DNA of 64,000 bases. Origin: Eledone cirrhosa. Its lineage: Eukaryota. Of the stretch, positions 8 through 51,611 are shown in pieces. A program made the position numbers and the translations under genes. The DNA lies in assembly GCA_964016885.1 (NCBI GenBank), contig OZ024761.1, forward strand, positions 6,262,001-6,326,000, written 5' to 3'. The notes beneath the pieces were generated by a model, which had not been told where the DNA came from, made no database searches, and worked only from the letters and a program-made list of their open reading frames with translations. How positions within the stretch are numbered: the stretch's first letter is position 1; each line of letters opens with the position of its first letter.

Positions 8-56
<49 letters not shown>

Positions 57-61
<5 letters not shown>

Positions 62-1920
62 ATAAATGCTCTGAAATAGCGATATATATGTGAATATAGA
101 CATAGAATATTCGAAAATATTCTGTATGTTTATAATAAACATTTTGAAGACCTAATCGCTATAGAATAGAATACGTCACGTATTAAAATTAGATTCTCGA
201 TAAAAGCAAGGGAAGTAATCTACGCGTTTCATTCTAGTTAGAAATCATCAGGACTACATATCCAGTGCTTTTATCGAGAATGACACAGCTAGAGACTTAT
301 AGAATACTTAGCTGTGTACAGGAACTGGTTTGAAAGAGCGGTTGCCGGTCCGGCAGAAATTAGAAATTGGAATAAATGCTCTGAAATAGCGATATATATG
401 TGAATATAGACATAGAATATTCGAAAATATTCTGTATGTTTATAATAAACATTTTGAAGACCTAATCGCTATAGAATAGAATACGTCACGTATTAAAATT
501 AGATTCTCGATAAAAGCAAGGGAAGTAATCTACGCGTTTCATTCTAGTTAGAAATCATCAGGACTACATATCCAGTGCTTTTATCGAGAATGACACAGCT
601 AGAGACTTATAGAATACTTAGCTGTGTACAGGAACTGGTTTGAAAGAGCGGTTGCCGGTCCGGCAGAAATTAGAAATTGGAATAAATGCTCTGAAATAGC
701 GATATATATGTGAATATAGACATAGAATATTCGAAAATATTCTGTATGTTTATAATAAACATTTTGAAGACCTAATCGCTATAGAATAGAATACGTCACG
801 TATTAAAATTAGATTCTCGATAAAAGCAAGGGAAGTAATCTACGCGTTTCATTCTAGTTAGAAATCATCAGGACTACATATCCAGTGCTTTTATCGAGAA
901 TGACACAGCTAGAGACTTATAGAATACTTAGCTGTGTACAGGAACTGGTTTGAAAGAGCGGTTGCCGGTCCGGCAGAAATTAGAAATTGGAATAAATGCT
1001 CTGAAATAGCGATATATATGTGAATATAGACATAGAATATTCGAAAATATTCTGTATGTTTATAATAAACATTTTGAAGACCTAATCGCTATAGAATAGA
1101 ATACGTCACGTATTAAAATTAGATTCTCGATAAAAGCAAGGGAAGTAATCTACGCGTTTCATTCTAGTTAGAAATCATCAGGACTACATATTCAGTGCTT
1201 TTATCGAGAATGACACAGCTAGAGACTTATAGAATACTTAGCTGTGTACAGGAACTGGTTTGAAAGAGCGGTTGCCGGTCCGGCAGAAATTAGAAATTGG
1301 AATAAATGCTCTGAAATAGCGATATATATGTGAATATAGACATAGAATATTCGAAAATATTCTGTATGTTTATAATAAACATTTTGAAGACCTAATCGCT
1401 ATAGAATAGAATACGTCACGTATTAAAATTAGATTCTCGATAAAAGCAAGGGAAGTAATCTACGCGTTTCATTCTAGTTAGAAATCATCAGGACTACATA
1501 TCCAGTGCTTTTATCGAGAATGACACAGCTAGAGACTTATAGAATACTTAGCTGTGTACAGGAACTGGTTTGAAAGAGCGGTTGCCGGTCCGGCAGAAAT
1601 TAGAAATTGGAATAAATGCTCTGAAATAGCGATATATATGTGAATATAGACATAGAATATTCGAAAATATTCTGTATGTTTATAATAAACATTTTGAAGA
1701 CCTAATCGCTATAGAATAGAATACGTCACGTATTAAAATTAGATTCTCGATAAAAGCAAGGGAAGTAATCTACGCGTTTCATTCTAGTTAGAAATCATCA
1801 GGACTACATATCCAGTGCTTTTATCGAGAATGACACAGCTAGAGACTTATAGAATACTTAGCTGTGTACAGGAACTGGTTTGAAAGAGCGGTTGCCGGTC
1901 CGGCAGAAATTAGAAATTGG
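57..1920 (-). repeat. Tandem array of a 310-bp hammerhead-containing unit (retrozyme-like), 6 copies, left arm of a giant palindrome
   Basis: 'aataaatgctctgaaatagc' recurs at 61, 371, 681, 991, 1301, 1611. Copies are near-identical (one C>T seen at ~1192). Begins directly after (TA)n. HHR on minus strand at 215-257 and every +310. Confidence 0.95.
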
Positions 1921-4370
1921 AAATTTCTAATTTCTGCCGGACCGGCAACCGCTCTTTCAAACCAGTTCCTGTACACAGCTAAGTATTCTATAAGTCTCTA
2001 GCTGTGTCATTCTCGATAAAAGCACTGGATATGTAGTCCTGATGATTTCTAACTAGAATGAAACGCGTAGATTACTTCCCTTGCTTTTATCGAGAATCTA
2101 ATTTTAATACGTGACGTATTCTATTCTATAGCGATTAGGTCTTCAAAATGTTTATTATAAACATACAGAATATTTTCGAATATTCTATGTCTATATTCAC
2201 ATATATATCGCTATTTCAGAGCATTTATTCCAATTTCTAATTTCTGCCGGACCGGCAACCGCTCTTTCAAACCAGTTCCTGTACACAGCTAAGTATTCTA
2301 TAAGTCTCTAGCTGTGTCATTCTCGATAAAAGCACTGGATATGTAGTCCTGATGATTTCTAACTAGAATGAAACGCGTAGATTACTTCCCTTGCTTTTAT
2401 CGAGAATCTAATTTTAATACGTGACGTATTCTATTCTATAGCGATTAGGTCTTCAAAATGTTTATTATAAACATACAGAATATTTTCGAATATTCTATGT
2501 CTATATTCACATATATATCGCTATTTCAGAGCATTTATTCCAATTTCTAATTTCTGCCGGACCGGCAACCGCTCTTTCAAACCAGTTCCTGTACACAGCT
2601 AAGTATTCTATAAGTCTCTAGCTGTGTCATTCTCGATAAAAGCACTGGATATGTAGTCCTGATGATTTCTAACTAGAATGAAACGCGTAGATTACTTCCC
2701 TTGCTTTTATCGAGAATCTAATTTTAATACGTGACGTATTCTATTCTATAGCGATTAGGTCTTCAAAATGTTTATTATAAACATACAGAATATTTTCGAA
2801 TATTCTATGTCTATATTCACATATATATCGCTATTTCAGAGCATTTATTCCAATTTCTAATTTCTGCCGGACCGGCAACCGCTCTTTCAAACCAGTTCCT
2901 GTACACAGCTAAGTATTCTATAAGTCTCTAGCTGTGTCATTCTCGATAAAAGCACTGGATATGTAGTCCTGATGATTTCTAACTAGAATGAAACGCGTAG
3001 ATTACTTCCCTTGCTTTTATCGAGAATCTAATTTTAATACGTGACGTATTCTATTCTATAGCGATTAGGTCTTCAAAATGTTTATTATAAACATACAGAA
3101 TATTTTCGAATATTCTATGTCTATATTCACATATATATCGCTATTTCAGAGCATTTATTCCAATTTCTAATTTCTGCCGGACCGGCAACCGCTCTTTCAA
3201 ACCAGTTCCTGTACACAGCTAAGTATTCTATAAGTCTCTAGCTGTGTCATTCTCGATAAAAGCACTGGATATGTAGTCCTGATGATTTCTAACTAGAATG
3301 AAACGCGTAGATTACTTCCCTTGCTTTTATCGAGAATCTAATTTTAATACGTGACGTATTCTATTCTATAGCGATTAGGTCTTCAAAATGTTTATTATAA
3401 ACATACAGAATATTTTCGAATATTCTATGTCTATATTCACATATATATCGCTATTTCAGAGCATTTATTCCAATTTCTAATTTCTGCCGGACCGGCAACC
3501 GCTCTTTCAAACCAGTTCCTGTACACAGCTAAGTATTCTATAAGTCTCTAGCTGTGTCATTCTCGATAAAAGCACTGGATATGTAGTCCTGATGATTTCT
3601 AACTAGAATGAAACGCGTAGATTACTTCCCTTGCTTTTATCGAGAATCTAATTTTAATACGTGACGTATTCTATTCTATAGCGATTAGGTCTTCAAAATG
3701 TTTATTATAAACATACAGAATATTTTCGAATATTCTATGTCTATATTCACATATATATCGCTATTTCAGAGCATTTATTCCAATTTCTAATTTCTGCCGG
3801 ACCGGCAACCGCTCTTTCAAACCAGTTCCTGTACACAGCTAAGTATTCTATAAGTCTCTAGCTGTGTCATTCTCGATAAAAGCACTGGATATGTAGTCCT
3901 GATGATTTCTAACTAGAATGAAACGCGTAGATTACTTCCCTTGCTTTTATCGAGAATCTAATTTTAATACGTGACGTATTCTATTCTATAGCGATTAGGT
4001 CTTCAAAATGTTTATTATAAACATACAGAATATTTTCGAATATTCTATGTCTATATTCACATATATATCGCTATTTCAGAGCATTTATTCCAATTTCTAA
4101 TTTCTGCCGGACCGGCAACCGCTCTTTCAAACCAGTTCCTGTACACAGCTAAGTATTCTATAAGTCTCTAGCTGTGTCATTCTCGATAAAAGCACTGGAT
4201 ATGTAGTCCTGATGATTTCTAACTAGAATGAAACGCGTAGATTACTTCCCTTGCTTTTATCGAGAATCTAATTTTAATACGTGACGTATTCTATTCTATA
4301 GCGATTAGGTCTTCAAAATGTTTATTATAAACATACAGAATATTTTCGAATATTCTATGTCTATATTCAT
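1921..4370 (+). repeat. Reverse-complement tandem array of the same 310-bp unit, ~7.9 copies, right arm
   Basis: 'aatttctaatttctgccgg' recurs every 310 bp from 1922 to 4092. Exact reverse complement of the left arm. Ends where the unit's internal ATATAT merges into (TA)n. Confidence 0.95.
2033..2075 (+). ncRNA. Type I hammerhead ribozyme (representative of 14 copies in the array)
   Basis: GTAGTC [stem I] CTGATGA t-TTCT-aact-AGAA-t [stem II] GAAA CGCG TA / GATTAC [stem I']. Stem III is the palindrome ACGCGT; predicted cut after GUA at 2069. Stem I is extended by ATTCTCGATAAAAGCA (2009-2024) pairing with TGCTTTTATCGAGAAT (2082-2097). Confidence 0.88.
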
Positions 4371-4387
4371 ATATATATATATATACA

Positions 4388-4588
4388 CACACACACATAT
4401 ATATTATAATAATTGTTTCTATTTTTGGCACAAGGCCAGCAATTACCCAGTGCATTACTGGTACTTTATTTTATCGACCCCGTAAGGATGAAAGGCAAAG
4501 TTAACCTCGGCAGGATTTGAACTCAGAATGGCAAGGACCATAACTCTATGCGTCAAAGCATGGCGTCCGACCCTCTACCGATACTGCC
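4388..4588 (-). mobile_element. tRNA-derived SINE family A (other copies ~9615-9677, 10598-10770, 11632-11790, 35725-35905, 37220-37290, 37668-37855, 42850-43000, 46490-46672, 54445-54570, 56508-56665)
   Basis: Sense strand reads GGCAGTATCGGTAGAG (A-box-like)...CTGAGTTCAAATCC (B-box)...CTTTGCCTTTCATCCTTACGGGGTCGATAAA...TAGAAACAATTATT. About 10 dispersed copies in the window. Confidence 0.85.
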
Positions 4589-4591
4589 TAC

Positions 4592-4905
4592 GTTTATTGG
4601 TTGGTAACGCGCGTTTCGCTATTGATCTGCTCAAGGTTTGGTCTGTTTCGATCTGGCCTGACTCTGGAATCAAAAGCCCGTCGGACCTCTGTTGTAGTCA
4701 TTACTACAACAACTTTTGATTCCAGAGTCGGGCCAGATCGATATAGATCGAACCTTGAGCAGATCAATAGCGAAACGCGCGTCACCAACCAATAAACATA
4801 ATGAAGGTTTAACCAATCGTCCTTATATTATTATATTACACTCTGTCTGGCTCTACACCTCGATACAGACGTGAACTTACAGTAACTTCATGGTACACTT
4901 CCAGG
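4592..4905 (+). mobile_element. Non-coding pLTR-like element with 5' inverted copy; degenerate HHR with long stem II (family also at 25762-26005, 61150-61260, 63610-63650)
   Basis: 4592-4676 is the reverse complement of 4712-4797. Consensus GGT CCGACGA gcttttgatt...gatcaatagc GAAA CGCGCG TC ACC. Ends in TA repeats. Confidence 0.6.
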
Positions 4906-5039
4906 ATATATATATATCATCTTCTACCTGGAGTTGCGACCGATAGATAGTATTAGCAATTGGAAAGACCAACGGAAACATTGATTCCTCGGTCCAATTT
5001 GACAAAAGTCGATCGACTTATATATATATATATATCATG

Positions 5040-5415
5040 AGGTCATTAACATAGCTTTGTATATGAAATGGCTGAAGTTGTATATCTGGCGATATACGGT
5101 ATGTTTATAAATAAACATTTTGAAAGCCTTCAGTTATGAGCCGGGAAACTGATGGCGTACGCCATCTAGTGTGTTCCAACAGAAGCTAAGTACGGGTAAC
5201 TAGAGTTGATGACGTCATCATTTCTGACTCTGGTCGTTATCAAGGTAGTACTCCCCGACCCGCTTAATACTGGAACTTATTATGAGCTATAACATATAGT
5301 TTAGAAGCCTCTGTACATGGGCTGATCAGTCACATTTGAATATAGAGTAACGACTGGATATCGCCAGATATACAACTTCACGTATTTCATATACAGAGCT
5401 ATGCTAGAGTCAATG

Positions 5416-5420
<5 letters not shown>
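5040..5420. mobile_element. TA-flanked element with ~45-bp imperfect inverted ends
   Basis: 5055-5097 (catagctttgtatatgaaat..tgaagttgtatatctggcgatat) pairs with 5357-5403. Contains GTATGTTTATAATAAACATTTTGAA, shared with the 310-bp unit. Confidence 0.55.
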
Positions 5421-5642: not shown

Positions 5643-5671
<29 letters not shown>

Positions 5672-5725
5672 CGGCGATGAATTAGTTTTGCGAGGTTTTT
5701 GATATGAAATTGTGTGTCGAAACAA

Positions 5726-7256
5726 ATATTGTTATACTTGGGGAGGGTCATATTTGTGTAATAATATTGCCAGAATTAATAACAGAACACATTCACTGTT
5801 TGGTTGGTTTTCGCTTCTGTATCTTTTATATCGGTTAATTTAATTTATTCGGTCCTCAATGTAACCATTGACTGACCAACGGTCAAAAATACAGATACAA
5901 TATAGACACAAACACATATATATAGTCTAACAAAGTTCTTTCGTTGCACATCTGCAAAACTCAGCAATGTCCAGTAGTGCCAAGTTTAATATTCTGATCG
6001 CAGACTTGGTACGAGTGATGAAGAACGTGTCCCGCATGTGCGACTCAACAAAAATGGAAAGACACATCCAACACTTCATCAACCGCATGCAGTTCTCTGG
6101 CTACAACCAAAGAGACAGAATCAGAGTATACGAAGGAGCCACGGAGAAGTATAAGACCCTCATAGAACTGGACATGAAAGGAATTTGCCCATTATACAGG
6201 AGCAAATCATGAAATAGCTTAGATAGGACTAGACATAAGATAGGGAAAGCCACCTCATGGTACGACAACCAGAGATACCAGAGTGTCATGTTTGTGGACG
6301 CTACCCCTGGAGGGAAATTAGCTAACCAGTGTAGAAAGGCCCTGAGAAAGACCCACTTAAAGATTAAGGTGGTAGAAAAGCCAGGAACCAGGGTAGGTTT
6401 TGCTGATCAGGGATTTTATGGTGATAAAATCCCTGATCAGATGTACAGAGGGTACTTGCAGAAACATGACAACATACATAGGCGAGACAGCTCGTAGCAT
6501 AGGTGAAAGGATAGACCAACACTGGGGGGAACTAATAGGACAGCAATAAAACGGTTCAGTACTATACGAACACGACAGACAAAGACATGACTGTAATATA
6601 GACAACATAGAAATTAGAATAATATCTAAACATAGAAATGACCCAGCAGATAGGCAAATCAGAGAGGCCAGCGAAATAGAACTTAGAAGGCCAAGGCTAA
6701 ACAGAAAGAATGAATGGAATAACAACACCCAAACAAAGAACACTGACCTAAGAGAAGTATAAATAAATAAATAAATACATAAGCACAATAACAATAAACA
6801 TATATAAACACACACTAGTAAACTAAGATAGAATACTATAACCAATACACAGTCACCCAAACAAGAACACACATCAAACAAAACACTATACACATACGCA
6901 AACGCATGCGCAGAGAAGACAAAAAAAAACAAAAACAAATAAATAAATAAATAAACAGACTAAATAAAGATGGCATAGGCATACAATGCAACGGGAGGAA
7001 ACATAATAGCAACACTGACGATGTTGCAGATGTGCAACGAAAGAACTTTGATAGACTATATATATGTTTGTGTCTATATTGTATCTGTATTATTGTTGAC
7101 CGTTGGTCAGTAAATGGTAACATTGAGGACCGAATAAATTAGATTAACCGATATAAAGGACACAGAAGCGAAAACCAACCAAACAGTGAATGTGTTCTGT
7201 TATTAATTCTGGCAATATTATTACAACAATATGACCCTCCCCAAGTATTACAATAT
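5726..7256 (+). mobile_element. 5'-truncated Penelope-like element (Neptune-like) with upstream inverted partial pLTR
   Basis: Degenerate coding 5960-6725: ..ADLVRVMKNVS..MQFSGY.., MFVDATPGGKL..KVVEKPG, then GIY-YIG YIGETARSIGERIDQH..RQIREASEIELRRPRLNRKNEW in another frame. 5726-5957 is the reverse complement of 7024-7256. Partial pLTR copy also at 23660-23800. Confidence 0.85.
7011..7052 (+). ncRNA. Minimal hammerhead ribozyme in the PLE pLTR
   Basis: AACA CTGACGA t GTTGCA gatg TGCAAC GAAA GAACTT TGAT. Stem I has one mismatch; the related copy at 62656-62698 has a perfect GTCA/TGAC stem I. Confidence 0.7.
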
Positions 7257-7359
7257 ATATATATATATATATATATATAGGCTTAAAAATGGATTGAGAG
7301 TAAGAAAAAAGCAAGAAAGGGGGACGGGCGAGTAACTAGCAACTACACAGCCACCATAT

Positions 7360-19793: not shown

Positions 19794-19887
<94 letters not shown>

Positions 19888-20079
19888 TCAGGTTATCAAT
19901 AATCTAGTGATAATATATCGTTACGTTAGAGATGAACAGCGTACGTGCAGGTTTGCTCAACGAGTATAAATTCCGGAGATCAAATTATATCATGGAGATC
20001 AAATTTATATCATGGAGATCAAATTTACAAAAGGTTTGCTCAACGAGTATAAATTATATCCCGGAGATCAAATTATATC

Positions 20080-22161
20080 ATGGAGATCAAATTTACAAAA
20101 CGGAAGAACAATAAACTACAGAATGACATCACGGCACTGCTCAATAATCTAAAAAACGCCAATGGAATTATTGTTAGAGCAGACAAAACATCAAACGTAT
20201 ATACCATGGATGTGGACACTTACAATAACTTCATCCGTAAGGAATTGCATAAAAAATACAGGAAAACTAATGAAGCTACACTTAAAAACATCAACAACTC
20301 GGCATGTGATATTGTTAAAAAACTTTGTATTGACGATAGAACGCAACCCTTAACACCAGCTACACCATCCTTCAACCTGAAGGACCACAAGGTAAACTTC
20401 GATACTAACCCTAATATTAGACTTATATGCCCCTCTAAATCTGATATAGGCAAAATTAGCAAATATATACTAGACAGAATTATCCCCCAAGTTAAGGTTA
20501 AAGTAGAGATTAAACTATGGGGTAACACTCATGAAGCAATAAGATGGTTTAATAACATTACTGATAAGAAAAAAATCAAAATTTATTCAGTTTGATATTG
20601 ATGAATATTATTCCTCAATTTCACCTGATACTCTACATGAAGCTCTTTCGTTCGCTAAGGATAATTCCGACCTTACGGATGCTGAAATTAAAATTATTAT
20701 GGAAACGAGGAAAACTATAGTTAAATTCGATGATAGCTACTGGGTTCGCAAAGATAGACCTTCTAATTTTGATATCACTATGGGTTCTAATGATTCGGCG
20801 GAAGTAACAGATCTAGTGGGAATTTATATCACCCACAGATTACAAGGAAAATTCAAGGATCTCCACGGTGGAATCTACCGTGACGATGCGCTCCTATTAG
20901 TTAAGCATATGAATAACCAGAATTTAGAAAGGATGCGTAAAAATATCAGAAAGCTTTTTAAGGAACTAGGATTAAATATTACATTTGAATATAACCTCAA
21001 AGAGGTCAATTTCCTTGATGTTACTTTCAATCTCAATACAGATACGATTAAACCGTTCCATAAACTAAATGAGAACCTTAAATATGTAAATACGAGTTCT
21101 AACCATCCACTCTCTATAATTAAATCCATCCCTAGAAATGTTTCTCTTAGAATCTCCCGCCTGTCGTCCAACCAACAAACCTTCAAAGAACATGCCGAAT
21201 ATGATGATGATGCACTTAGGAAAGCCGGTCACCTAGATAATATAGAGTATATAGTCAAAGATCACCAAAACACCCAAAATAAATCCCATAGGAGTAGAAA
21301 TAGCACAGAATCACCACCATACATACACTACCGCAATAGACACAATAATAGTCGCACACCACCAAACAGAAGGCGATGTAAGGAGTATATTTGGTACAAC
21401 CCGGTCTATAACAACTCTATTAAAACCAATCTACCCTCAAAATTCTTTCGATTAGTTAAAAAACACTTTCCAACATCACATAAATATAATAAAATCTTAA
21501 ACCCTAACACTATTCGACTTTCATATTCAACCGCCCCTAATATTGAACAACATATAAAAAAGCTTAACGCAAAATGGTTGTATAAACGCCTTCCAACACA
21601 TAACAATACACGTAAAACATTAGCTATAACATCACAAAACAACAAACAACATCCTGTCCTACATAAGCAACCTCATCAACCCATCCATGGCAATACAACA
21701 ACGCAAAATTATAATTGCAACTGTGTCCAACCAGGAATGTGTCCGTTGAACAATCAGTGTCTTGAACGCAACATCGTATACAAATGTACTATCGAATCGG
21801 ATAGACAGAAGTGGTACTATGTGGGATCTACAGCCACCTCCTTCAAATCACGCCTTTATAGACATCGTTACTCGATAAAACATGAAAACCAGCGTTATGT
21901 AACAACACTCGCAGACAAGGCTTGGCAGCTGCGTGAAAATAACCAACAATTTCACCTAAAATGGGATATAATAGCGGCTGCCCCCCCCCCCCCCCCCCCC
22001 CATATTCCCATGGACAGGAATTTTGTAAATTATGTAATGTAGAATTATTTTGTATTATGAAATCCAAAAACATTTTATTAAATAACAGAATAGAGCGATC
22101 GTTATACTGTAACCATCGCTTAAAATCTACATTTTCATATTATAAATACTACCAGGATTGA
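20080..22161 (+). pseudogene. PLE polyprotein (N-terminally truncated) split by two homopolymer frameshifts
   Basis: ORFs 20080-20595, (20577)20699-22042 and 21961-22161 join at an A-run (~20569-20575) and a C-run (~21982-22001). No other stop seen. Confidence 0.8.
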
Positions 22162-22629
22162 ACGCCTGTCTCTATCCCCGTTTGATTGTCAAAATAGATA
22201 TTAACATTCTTTATTAGTCTTAATTCTATCAACTCTTCTATTATTTACCTTTTAATACAAACTGCTATAGATAAAATGAGATTTCTGATTTCTTGATTCA
22301 ATTCCCTAATGCATATACCAGCTGGCTACTAGCATTGATGTTATTTAGTAGCAATCGAAATCTCCCCCTTTCCCAATTGACACTTTATAATTAATACTAC
22401 TGCACCAAATGACCAGCCCTGTCCACTGTCCAGTTGGTCAAGTAGAGATTAAAATTGGCACTCCCAAAATTCTTATTTAGATTTACTCATGGTATTCTCA
22501 TTAGAAACCCATTATATACTTGTTTAGCAGTAAATTAATTTACCATCTGTCATATACTATCCCCTCTGTTTCTTCCTCTATTACTAATATAAATACTTCA
22601 ATTTTTCTGATTTTATCCCATTTATCCAA

Positions 22630-22750
22630 AATCTCTGAAGAAGTGACAACTGATTATACATTTGCTATCGAATGCTTGCTAACATTATATGATTACGCAA
22701 GCAGCGATACATAGGTATTCCGTCTGTTACAGAAACATATGTCAATACCT
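22630..22750 (+). ncRNA. Candidate HHR with ~75-nt stem II insertion in the 3' region of the PLE
   Basis: CTGAAGA a GTGACA...TGTTAC a GAAA CATATG TC; palindromic stem III ACATATGT; stem I not convincingly paired. Confidence 0.45.
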
Positions 22751-22798
22751 AATAAATTCCTTTTTAAAAAAAAAGCACTTTCATTTTATATTCATCCT

Positions 22799-22858
<60 letters not shown>

Positions 22859-50618: not shown

Positions 50619-50664
<46 letters not shown>

Positions 50665-50666
<2 letters not shown>

Positions 50667-51274
50667 CAGGTACACATACATATATGCACGTATCAGTTTA
50701 GCGGACGCTTATTATAACGTCCGCTTTGTTCGTTTGTAAACAAACTGAACAGCCTGAATTTATGCCGTACGGTGTTAAGGCAACAATGTCACCTTTTTGT
50801 TCAACACTGACACAGGAACGATGTACTAGTTTCAAGCTTGTTAGCTATCATCAGCACCGTATACCCTTCTGCCAGATGGTTGAACGTTCGAAAGTATATA
50901 CTTTCCTTATGAAAATTAAGAGTGAGAAATGAAATTTCGTTTTCATTTTATTACAACTTATCGTTTTCGGTACGCCTGGCCGTCTGAACTCACTCGATAT
51001 GCAAATTAGGCTGCTCAGCCGTTAATTTTCATAAGGAAAGTATATACTTTCGAACGTTCAACCATCTGGCAGAAAGGTATACGGTGCTGATGATAGCTAA
51101 CAAGCTTGAAACTAGTACATCGTTCCTGTGTCAGTGTTGAACAAAAAGGTGACGTCGTTGCCTTAACACCGTACGGCATAAATTCAGTCTGTTCAGTTTG
51201 CTTACAAATGAACAAAGCGGGCGTTATAATAAGCGTCCGCTAAACTGATACGTGCATATATGTATGTGTACCTG

Positions 51275-51282
<8 letters not shown>
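50665..51282. mobile_element. Inverted pair (~250-bp arms) of an HHR-bearing pLTR-like element in (TA)n
   Basis: ~50665-50917 is the reverse complement of ~51023-51282 with a few substitutions; extra nested inversions 50500-50546/50918-50961 and 50560-50625/51553-51617. Confidence 0.85.
51081..51123 (+). ncRNA. Type I hammerhead ribozyme (mirror copy at 50818-50860 minus)
   Basis: ACGGTG CTGATGA t AGCT aaca AGCT t GAAA CTAG TA CATCGT: 6-bp stem I, 4-bp stem II, palindromic ACTAGT stem III, GUA site. Confidence 0.88.
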
Positions 51283-51327
<45 letters not shown>

Positions 51328-51408
51328 GTTATTCCGGGTTGAATCGGAGGTAACCACAGTAAGTAAGGTACTCAATACATAGCAGAGTATAACAGTTTTA
51401 ATATAGAA

Positions 51409-51514
51409 GAGATTCTACAGGACTAGAACTGTTTCATTCATTAGAAATCATCAGGAATCTCTGATGATTCCTGATGATTTCTAATGAATGAAACAGTTCT
51501 AGTCCTGTAGAATC
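51409..51514. ncRNA. Inverted pair of hammerhead ribozymes (minus 51409-51461, plus 51466-51514) in element 51328-51530
   Basis: GAGATTC CTGATGA t TTC taat GAA t GAAA CAG ttctagtc CTG TA GAATCTC; truncated family members at 39020-39120, 61843-61938, 60357-60411. Confidence 0.82.
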
Positions 51515-51611
51515 TCTTCTATATTAAAACTATATATATATATATATATATATATGCATGCTACTGTACGTCTGTATGCATATATGTATGTACGTATACA
51601 TACATACTTAC

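What the first reader, a model, noticed from the sequence alone, without database searches (positions are those of the whole stretch)
57..4370. 310-bp hammerhead unit forming a 14-copy concatemer folded into a ~4.3-kb palindrome
Seen: 6 copies on minus abut ~7.9 copies on plus with almost no spacer (tagaaatt-gga-aatttcta at ~1920). Copies are near-identical, each has one intact HHR and no ORF, and both ends run into (TA)n. Inference: a fresh retrozyme insertion made by rolling reverse transcription of a ~310-nt circular RNA with a strand switch. The HHR-sense directions point away from the centre, so read-through from either side would give long dsRNA and also self-cleave into 310-nt monomers.
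Basis: partly seen in the sequence, partly recalled or inferred. Interest (0 to 1): 0.9.

Follow-up and report, generated by a model that had tools for sequence, protein, structure and literature searches.

The report
Two-ended rolling insertion of hammerhead circle
This mirror-image array is one of well over a thousand similar insertions of a 310-base repeat that carries a predicted self-cutting RNA motif, and their fixed, paired ends suggest that each was likely made when both ends of a DNA break primed copying around one small RNA circle, probably by a Penelope-type retrotransposon enzyme.

Summary
In detail: 6.0 minus-strand and 7.9 plus-strand copies of a 310-nt non-coding unit, each with a type I hammerhead core, set head-to-head in (TA)n. 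It is not a one-off. The genome holds 16,519 exact copies of an internal 29-mer and about 1,250-1,290 exact copies of each of two end types. All 89 two-armed insertions with both outer ends visible (47 not chosen for pairing) have one arm ending at site A and the other at site B, 26-35 nt upstream. Both arms share one sequence type in 67 of 69 insertions (11% expected by chance). Centre positions are uniform, carry 1-5-nt microhomology, and either arm can be longer. These are the inverted-copy, 'tail' and (TA)n marks of Penelope-like elements (PLEs). Best reading (0.72): a non-LTR retrozyme, likely copied by a PLE enzyme from both target ends on one RNA, usually a monomer circle. A fold-back 'strand switch' fits poorly, and an assembly artefact is very unlikely. 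Self-cleavage, circular RNA and the partner PLE are not shown. The element class is known; the strict A+B pairing on one template was not found in the papers searched.

The parts
56..1922 (-). Left arm, 6.02 copies; RNA-sense 3' (outer) end at unit phase 164 = site A (phase 0 = window 2070)
1922..4378 (+). Right arm, 7.93 copies; outer end at phase 129-138 = site B; 4370 onward is likely target-derived
1918..1922 (.). Centre junction, 1-nt overlap; inner ends at phases 158 and 162
2033..2075 (+). Type I hammerhead of the first plus copy (14 in the insertion); 4-bp helix II above a U-U mismatch; very short helix III formed by the self-complementary ACGCGU; predicted cut 2069/2070
   Evidence: sequence; activity not tested
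2148..2186 (+). Two stem-loops just upstream of site B, kept with compensatory changes in related subfamilies; candidate RT-positioning signal (inferred)
2199..2241 (+). Internal copy of the interval from site B (2199-2208) to site A (2234-2241): the PLE-type 'tail', present in full at the site-A outer end only
11..55 (.). Left (TA)n target; it follows the 3' end of another hammerhead-bearing element just upstream of the window
   Evidence: L233
4370..4384 (.). Right (TA)n target; replaces unit C130 by T

Best explanation
The array is one insertion of a high-copy 310-nt non-coding repeat with a type I hammerhead core (a non-LTR retrozyme), likely pasted in by a Penelope-like element's enzyme that would cut (TA)n on both strands and use both DNA ends as primers on one RNA, probably a monomer circle. 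Shown: head-to-head tandem arms, (TA)n flanks, one outer end at site A and the other at site B, one sequence type across both arms, random centre with short microhomology. Inferred steps: (1) array transcripts self-cleave, perhaps as dimeric hammerheads, and monomers are ligated into circles; (2) a PLE RT-endonuclease, probably a dimer, binds near the two stem-loops; (3) one DNA end primes at site A with about 2 nt of pairing, the other at site B by pairing with AUAUAUAU; (4) each RT rolls for a variable number of turns (median 4.4 at A, 3.4 at B) and stops at a random point; (5) the two cDNA 3' ends, which are not complementary, are joined through 1-5-nt microhomology or short inserts and filled in. 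A minority of insertions used multimeric or switched templates, and very long arms probably expanded after insertion.
For: Family size: 16,519 exact internal 29-mers; 1,287 site-A and 1,249 site-B ends. Geometry: 62 of 94 listed A ends pair divergently with a B end within 20 kb (0.4 expected), and there is no divergent A-A pair. End rule: 89 of 89 two-armed insertions with both ends visible are A+B, 47 of them not selected for pairing. Priming mark: C130>T in 59 of 94 terminal copies against 9 of 360 internal copies. One template: arm types agree in 67 of 69 (chance 0.108), with 30 types among 88 typed insertions. Within arms a variant is in all passes (245) or one pass (92), rarely in between (16, plus 6 all-but-one). 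No template end: inner ends are uniform (p = 0.64) and 2 of 172 lie near the ribozyme cut, 6.1 expected. Joining: overlap of 2 nt or more in 32 of 54 clean junctions against 18% for random junctions. PLE precedent: inverted truncated copy, one-sided tail and (TA)n targets (PMC8557442); both strands cut and extended, two internal RT start sites bounding the tail, predicted dimer (PMC11167929). The same rule appears in a 316-nt sister family (19 of 21) and in an ORF-bearing PLE family of this genome (8 of 9).
Against: No RNA evidence: neither cleavage nor a circle was observed. No PLE ORF is joined to, or similar to, this unit or its relatives in the fetched loci, so the partner is unidentified. 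Some insertions do not fit a single monomer circle: L088, L075 and L127 carry the same non-fixed variant at the same turn in both arms, and L042, L099, L049, L033, L104 and L062+63 carry shared non-fixed variants at different turns. The in vitro PLE study saw no difference in start site between strands, found uncleaved RNA to be the main substrate and the hammerhead dispensable. The absence of fixed variants in the 11 core positions is not significant on its own (p = 0.07). About 10-15% of insertions are single-armed. Exceptions to the end rule exist in relatives (L220, L214, L160).
Confidence: 0.72

Rival explanations
1. The same two-site, two-ended priming, but on an uncleaved linear multimer (or multimer circle) transcribed from an existing array; arrays are regrown and homogenised later at the DNA level.
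For: L088, L075 and L127 show the same variant pattern counted from both outer ends. Uncleaved RNA is the main substrate in vitro. Arms of 15-45 copies show scattered intermediate variants typical of later expansion.
Against: Thirty sequence types, each fixed through whole insertions, many seen once, call for a single-unit bottleneck followed by amplification. Intermediate variants are rare. No single-copy variant recurs at the same turn in different insertions, apart from centre-junction alignment artefacts. Ribozyme cores and helices are conserved with covariation across subfamilies.
Confidence: 0.14
2. One priming event followed by fold-back or self-priming (the first reader's strand switch; the antisense self-priming model of PMC3846280), the second arm being a copy of the first.
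For: It explains the shared sequence type directly. The window's own centre is a near-perfect hairpin. 10 of 86 centres are within 10 nt of symmetric. In L042 both inner ends carry the same minor variant.
Against: A copied arm cannot exceed its template, yet the A arm is longer in 43 of 83 and shorter in the rest, with no length correlation (rho 0.13). 76 of 86 centres are asymmetric, and the symmetric excess is not significant (p = 0.065). Both ends are fixed, including site A, which has little match to (TA)n.
Confidence: 0.06
3. Two primings on two different RNA molecules, with arm identity produced afterwards by gene conversion in the palindrome or by one dominant source locus per cell.
For: Palindrome arms can convert each other (general knowledge, recalled). 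One germ cell might express one master array.
Against: Single-copy variants persist unmirrored (window 1192; 122 singles). Arms are asymmetric in length and phase, yet identical in type out to the last copy. Types seen in only one of 88 typed insertions are shared by both arms.
Confidence: 0.06
4. Fold-back chimeric reads or mis-assembly.
For: Palindromes are a known read artefact (recalled). No read spanning this centre was examined.
Against: Artefacts would mirror the flanks and give matching ends. Here the two ends are different fixed sites at more than a thousand loci, arms are unequal, and an independent data set holds the same variant letters (X1).
Confidence: 0.01

Closest known systems
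Animal non-LTR retrozymes (Cervera and de la Pena 2020, PMC7229834; review PMC7761336; Li, Clavereau and Pollet 2026, bioRxiv 10.64898/2026.07.22.740005)
   Same: About 300-nt low-GC non-coding tandem unit, one type I hammerhead per unit, weak helix III, dispersed arrays; proposed rolling RT of a circle by a PLE.
   Different: Those texts describe tandem arrays only: 'inverted' occurs 0 times in the main text of PMC7229834 and only in a reference in the other two. The review says the repeats show no motif pointing to the mobilising element. Here the insertions carry the PLE tail and inversion. The supplement of PMC7229834 could not be read.
Endonuclease-bearing Penelope-like elements: tandem/inverted insertions with a 30-40-bp tail (PMC8557442, PMC3846280); in vitro PAc (PMC11167929)
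   Same: Head-to-head inverted 5'-truncated copy, tail on one end, (TA)n target, two internal start sites, hammerhead about 130-165 nt upstream of the start sites.
   Different: No ORF; many seamless turns of one short unit; inversion is the rule (about 85-90% of insertions); start sites are strictly complementary, whereas PAc showed no strand difference in vitro; the data argue against the published self-priming explanation for this family.
LINE-1 twin priming (mechanism recalled; PMC2837659 seen as search listing and abstract start only)
   Same: Both target ends prime cDNA, giving an inverted 5' part joined by microhomology.
   Different: In L1 it is a minority event, the first primer uses the poly(A) end, the second site is variable and the arms do not overlap on the RNA (recalled). 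Here both sites are fixed and internal, and both arms copy the same sequence many times.

Membership tests
Non-LTR retrozyme | Tandem unit of about 170-400 nt, low GC, non-coding | tested here: met
   310 nt, GC about 34%, longest stop-free frame 59 aa
Non-LTR retrozyme | Type I hammerhead core and helices in every unit | tested here: met
   14 of 14 cores in the window; conserved with covariation in subfamilies; no Rfam hit
Non-LTR retrozyme | Dispersed multi-locus family | tested here: met
Non-LTR retrozyme | Self-cleavage activity | not testable with these tools
   needs in vitro transcription
Non-LTR retrozyme | Expressed as linear and circular monomer RNA | not testable with these tools
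   no RNA holder listed; only indirect genomic signs
PLE-type insertion (works like) | Head-to-head inverted 5'-truncated copy | tested here: met
PLE-type insertion (works like) | Short tail at one end only (two start sites) | tested here: met
   26-35 nt between sites B and A; 89 of 89
PLE-type insertion (works like) | AT-rich / (TA)n target | tested here: met
   162 of 187 listed arm ends run straight into 6 or more nt of TA repeat; most others are interrupted TA tracts, and some are locus edges or centre fragments
Autonomous PLE | RT and GIY-YIG ORF | tested here: not met
   no ORF in the unit
Derivative of a known PLE pLTR | Sequence homology to the terminal repeat of an ORF-bearing PLE | tested here: inconclusive
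   none in 30 PLE loci, in the loci held, or in 16 loci of relatives; the genome could not be scanned exhaustively
PLE-type insertion (works like) | Target-site duplication | tested here: inconclusive
   cannot be read inside (TA)n without an empty allele

The most novel reading that the evidence does not exclude
Penelope-type integration is an asymmetric, near-obligatory double priming. The two active sites of one enzyme dimer take different fixed start sites on the same RNA molecule, one per DNA end. On a retrozyme circle both roll, so each palindrome is a clonal DNA record of one circular RNA, and this genome is a library of roughly 1,500-2,000 such records. This would explain the PLE inverted copy and tail as one event and tie animal retrozymes mechanistically to PLE enzymes.
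Probability: 0.55. Interest if true: 0.8.

Novelty: new variant of a known kind. Interest (0 to 1): 0.66.

Why it matters
Two questions are called open in the papers read: which enzyme and route integrate animal retrozymes (so far argued from co-occurrence and pLTR similarity), and how PLEs make their inverted and tailed insertions. A young family with more than a thousand near-identical insertions gives single-base constraints on both: complementary start sites, one template for both arms, random stops, microhomology joining. A 310-nt template with known start sites is a small, ready substrate for the existing in vitro PLE assay. The family also adds about 5 Mb of kilobase-scale palindromes to this genome (16,519 x 310 nt).

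Tried and rejected
Rfam found no hammerhead, and Pfam found nothing for the window's PLE frames; that family was assigned to the Hydra type only from its CxCX5C and DKT motifs against PMC8557442 section 11. Partner search failed: no similarity between the unit and 30 loci of that PLE family; a four-sequence profile of the start-site region hit only non-coding relatives; a pattern for other CGCG-loop hammerheads gave 1 isolated match; 16 loci of older subfamilies had no joined ORF. Sequencing runs: no RNA holder listed. Twenty runs from 17 studies hold the unit. X23 (same organism label as holder X2) gave 0 reads in 1,938 million letters, and two same-sample runs of X20 hold next to none, so the wide spread may be trace carry-over; horizontal transfer is not claimed. 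The first junction analysis was distorted by sequence types and redone with each locus's own copy, 12 of 86 junctions skipped. and two rows used wrong coordinates and are not used. My note that the sister family has a palindromic helix III loop was wrong: it has 3 bp and a variable 5-nt loop. Enrichment of inner ends at the cut site, at site A or at site B was tested and not found. Look-ups of earlier scan notes by sequence and by genome were empty.

Full report
Observation. The window is G000:C22:6262001-6326000 of a 3.0-Gb animal genome rich in (TA)n. Positions 56-1922 hold 6.02 minus-strand copies and 1922-4378 hold 7.93 plus-strand copies of a 310-nt unit. The only departures are a private change at 1192, not mirrored at 2648, and one at 4370. 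Each unit has a type I hammerhead core with a predicted cut at 2069/2070 and a very short helix III formed by a self-complementary hexamer, which pairs between two copies in a dimer fold. There is no ORF. Rfam does not recognise the motif. Below, phase 0 is window 2070.

It is a large young family. An internal 29-mer occurs 16,519 times. Exact patterns for two end types followed by TA repeat occur 1,287 times (site A, phase 164 or 169) and 1,249 times (site B, phase 130-138). From these and the density on C1 I estimate 1,500-2,000 insertions. Single-copy substitutions amount to 4.3e-4 per base over 284,599 bases in 104 insertions, errors included. One independent contig set (X1) holds both the host's flanking repeat and the same variant letters.

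The palindrome is the rule and its ends are complementary. Among the first listed ends on C1, 62 of 94 A ends have a divergent B end within 20 kb (0.4 expected); no divergent A-A pair was found, and the single B-B geometry was two neighbouring insertions. Of 20 A ends without an exact partner, 16 still had an inverted arm; of 20 such B ends, 11 did. In a list anchored on an internal motif (C1, first 36 Mb) 14 of 18 insertions were two-armed, 3 single-armed and 1 cut by a gap. In all, 89 of 89 two-armed insertions with both outer ends visible are A+B (83, 3, 3). Two more were cut by my fetch limits, one has a complex centre counted once (L051), and two entries (L069) may be one duplicated event. 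Forty-seven of the 89 were not chosen for pairing. Site A is taken as phases 156-172 and site B as 125-139.

The outer ends look like priming sites. Read inward from either flank the DNA is complementary to the ribozyme-sense RNA. At site B the unit's C130 is replaced by T in 59 of 94 terminal copies but 9 of 360 internal ones, as expected if a (TA)n primer pairs across a mismatch. Site A has only about 2 nt of match to the target, so its position must be set otherwise. Two stem-loops just upstream of B are kept across six sequences from related subfamilies: 92.9% of cells paired, 7 cells with two-sided change, 2 of 500 shuffles as high. That control ignores relatedness and the rows are few.

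Both arms come from one template, usually one unit. Arm types agree in 67 of 69 insertions where both arms cover a full unit, against 0.108 for random draws, with 30 types among 88 typed insertions. In arms with at least four passes a variant is in all passes 245 times, in one 92 times, in all but one 6 times and intermediate 16 times. Inner ends are uniform around the unit (p = 0.64; Rayleigh p 0.49 and 0.24), and only 2 of 172 lie near the ribozyme cut, so there is no sign of a template 5' end. By contrast, a ~200-bp hammerhead palindrome family in the same window has both arms stopping at one fixed point with only the centre letters varying (11 loci), as a linear template would give; those loci were picked by likeness to the window copy, which biases this control. 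Against a pure monomer circle, nine insertions share non-fixed variants between arms, three of them at the same turn, and arms of 15-45 copies show later expansion.

The centre. Of 74 junctions resolved (12 of 86 skipped), 54 are clean and 20 carry inserts; 32 of the 54 overlap by 2 nt or more, against 18% for random junctions. Arm lengths are uncorrelated, and the A arm is longer in 43 of 83. Only 10 of 86 centres are near-symmetric (5.8 expected, p = 0.065). A fold-back origin is therefore unlikely for the family, and the hairpin at 1920 is probably chance.

The ribozyme appears to be under selection. Insertion-wide variants touch 23 positions, 8 of them in the 43-nt hammerhead, all at N7, loop II, the base of helix II or wobble-tolerant helix I sites, and none in the 11 core positions (p = 0.07, suggestive only). 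A 316-nt sister family replaces the C3-G8 core pair by U3-A8, and other subfamilies keep the core with different helices. That U3-A8 is a functional natural variant is recalled, not tested.

The pattern is general to PLE-type elements here. The sister family follows the A+B rule at homologous positions in 19 of 21 clean two-armed insertions (exceptions L220, L214; two complex loci not classed). A PLE family with Hydra-type motifs and open frames up to about 780 aa (window 20053-22800) has two ends about 107 nt apart. In 8 of 9 divergent pairs one arm stops at the first end and the other reads past it (seen to stop at the second in 5); L160 is an exception. Its ends are unrelated in sequence to our unit, and no partner PLE was found.

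Comparison with print. PMC7229834 (abstract, Discussion, passages), PMC7761336 (passages) and the 2026 preprint (parts 1-3 of 5 and a term search) define animal retrozymes and propose PLE mobilisation, without describing inverted arrays in the text I saw. PMC8557442 (passages and section 11) describes the inverted copy, tail and (TA)n bias and calls their origin undefined. PMC3846280 (passages) explains head-to-head repeats by self-priming on an antisense template. PMC11167929 (parts 1-2 of 4) shows both-strand cleavage and extension and two internal start sites, with no strand difference. Eight searches found no paper reporting strict complementary start sites or palindromic retrozyme insertions. 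The library lacks most subscription papers, and supplements were not seen.

Verdict. A real feature; by sequence a non-LTR retrozyme, with activity and circle untested; it works like a PLE-driven two-ended insertion. New variant of a known kind, interest 0.66.

Noticed in passing
window 51330-51530: A ~200-bp palindromic hammerhead element with a helix II like ours, a 64-nt one-sided tail and (TA)n flanks; 2,107 candidates. Both arms stop at one fixed point, only the centre letters vary, and arm variants are shared.
   Followed up: partly
window 50660-51275: A ~600-bp palindrome with a hammerhead core in each arm (self-complementary helix III loop) and a (TA)n flank.
   Followed up: no
window 5035-5420: Older ~330-nt tandem family, head-to-head, sharing the two stem-loops about 60 nt before its end; my scan found no hammerhead in its loci.
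   Followed up: partly
window 19880-22800: PLE copy with Hydra-type motifs, an inverted arm and (TA)n flanks; very abundant family (52,683 candidates) with a ~107-nt tail; no full hammerhead found in its 3' region.
   Followed up: partly
window 5670-7260: 3' fragment of a PLE (Neptune-like by recalled motifs) with an inverted arm and two different ends in (TA)n.
   Followed up: no
window 9845 (+), 24008 (-), 55636 (-), and L233 just upstream of the window: A further hammerhead-bearing family; our insertion sits in the (TA)n at the end of one copy.
   Followed up: no
L078+L079 (G000:C1:97461204-97476782): A 45-copy arm with two linked variants in 9 scattered copies: a retrozyme arm apparently growing into a satellite.
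   Followed up: no
L088 (G000:C1:136719198-136726207): Both arms switch sequence type after the second turn from their outer ends.
   Followed up: partly
L113; L051; L064: A 7-nt micro-arm at site A in a seemingly single-armed insertion; a centre with repeated switches; a 272-nt foreign insert at a centre.
   Followed up: no
run X20 laid on window 4050-5000: A 340-nt cyclic contig of the unit at depth 17.7 with none of the host's abundant flanking repeat; carry-over or RNA origin both possible, unresolved.
   Followed up: no
L244-L259, L203-L232: At least three further ~315-nt subfamilies with intact or covarying hammerheads, i.e. a long-lived non-autonomous lineage.
   Followed up: partly
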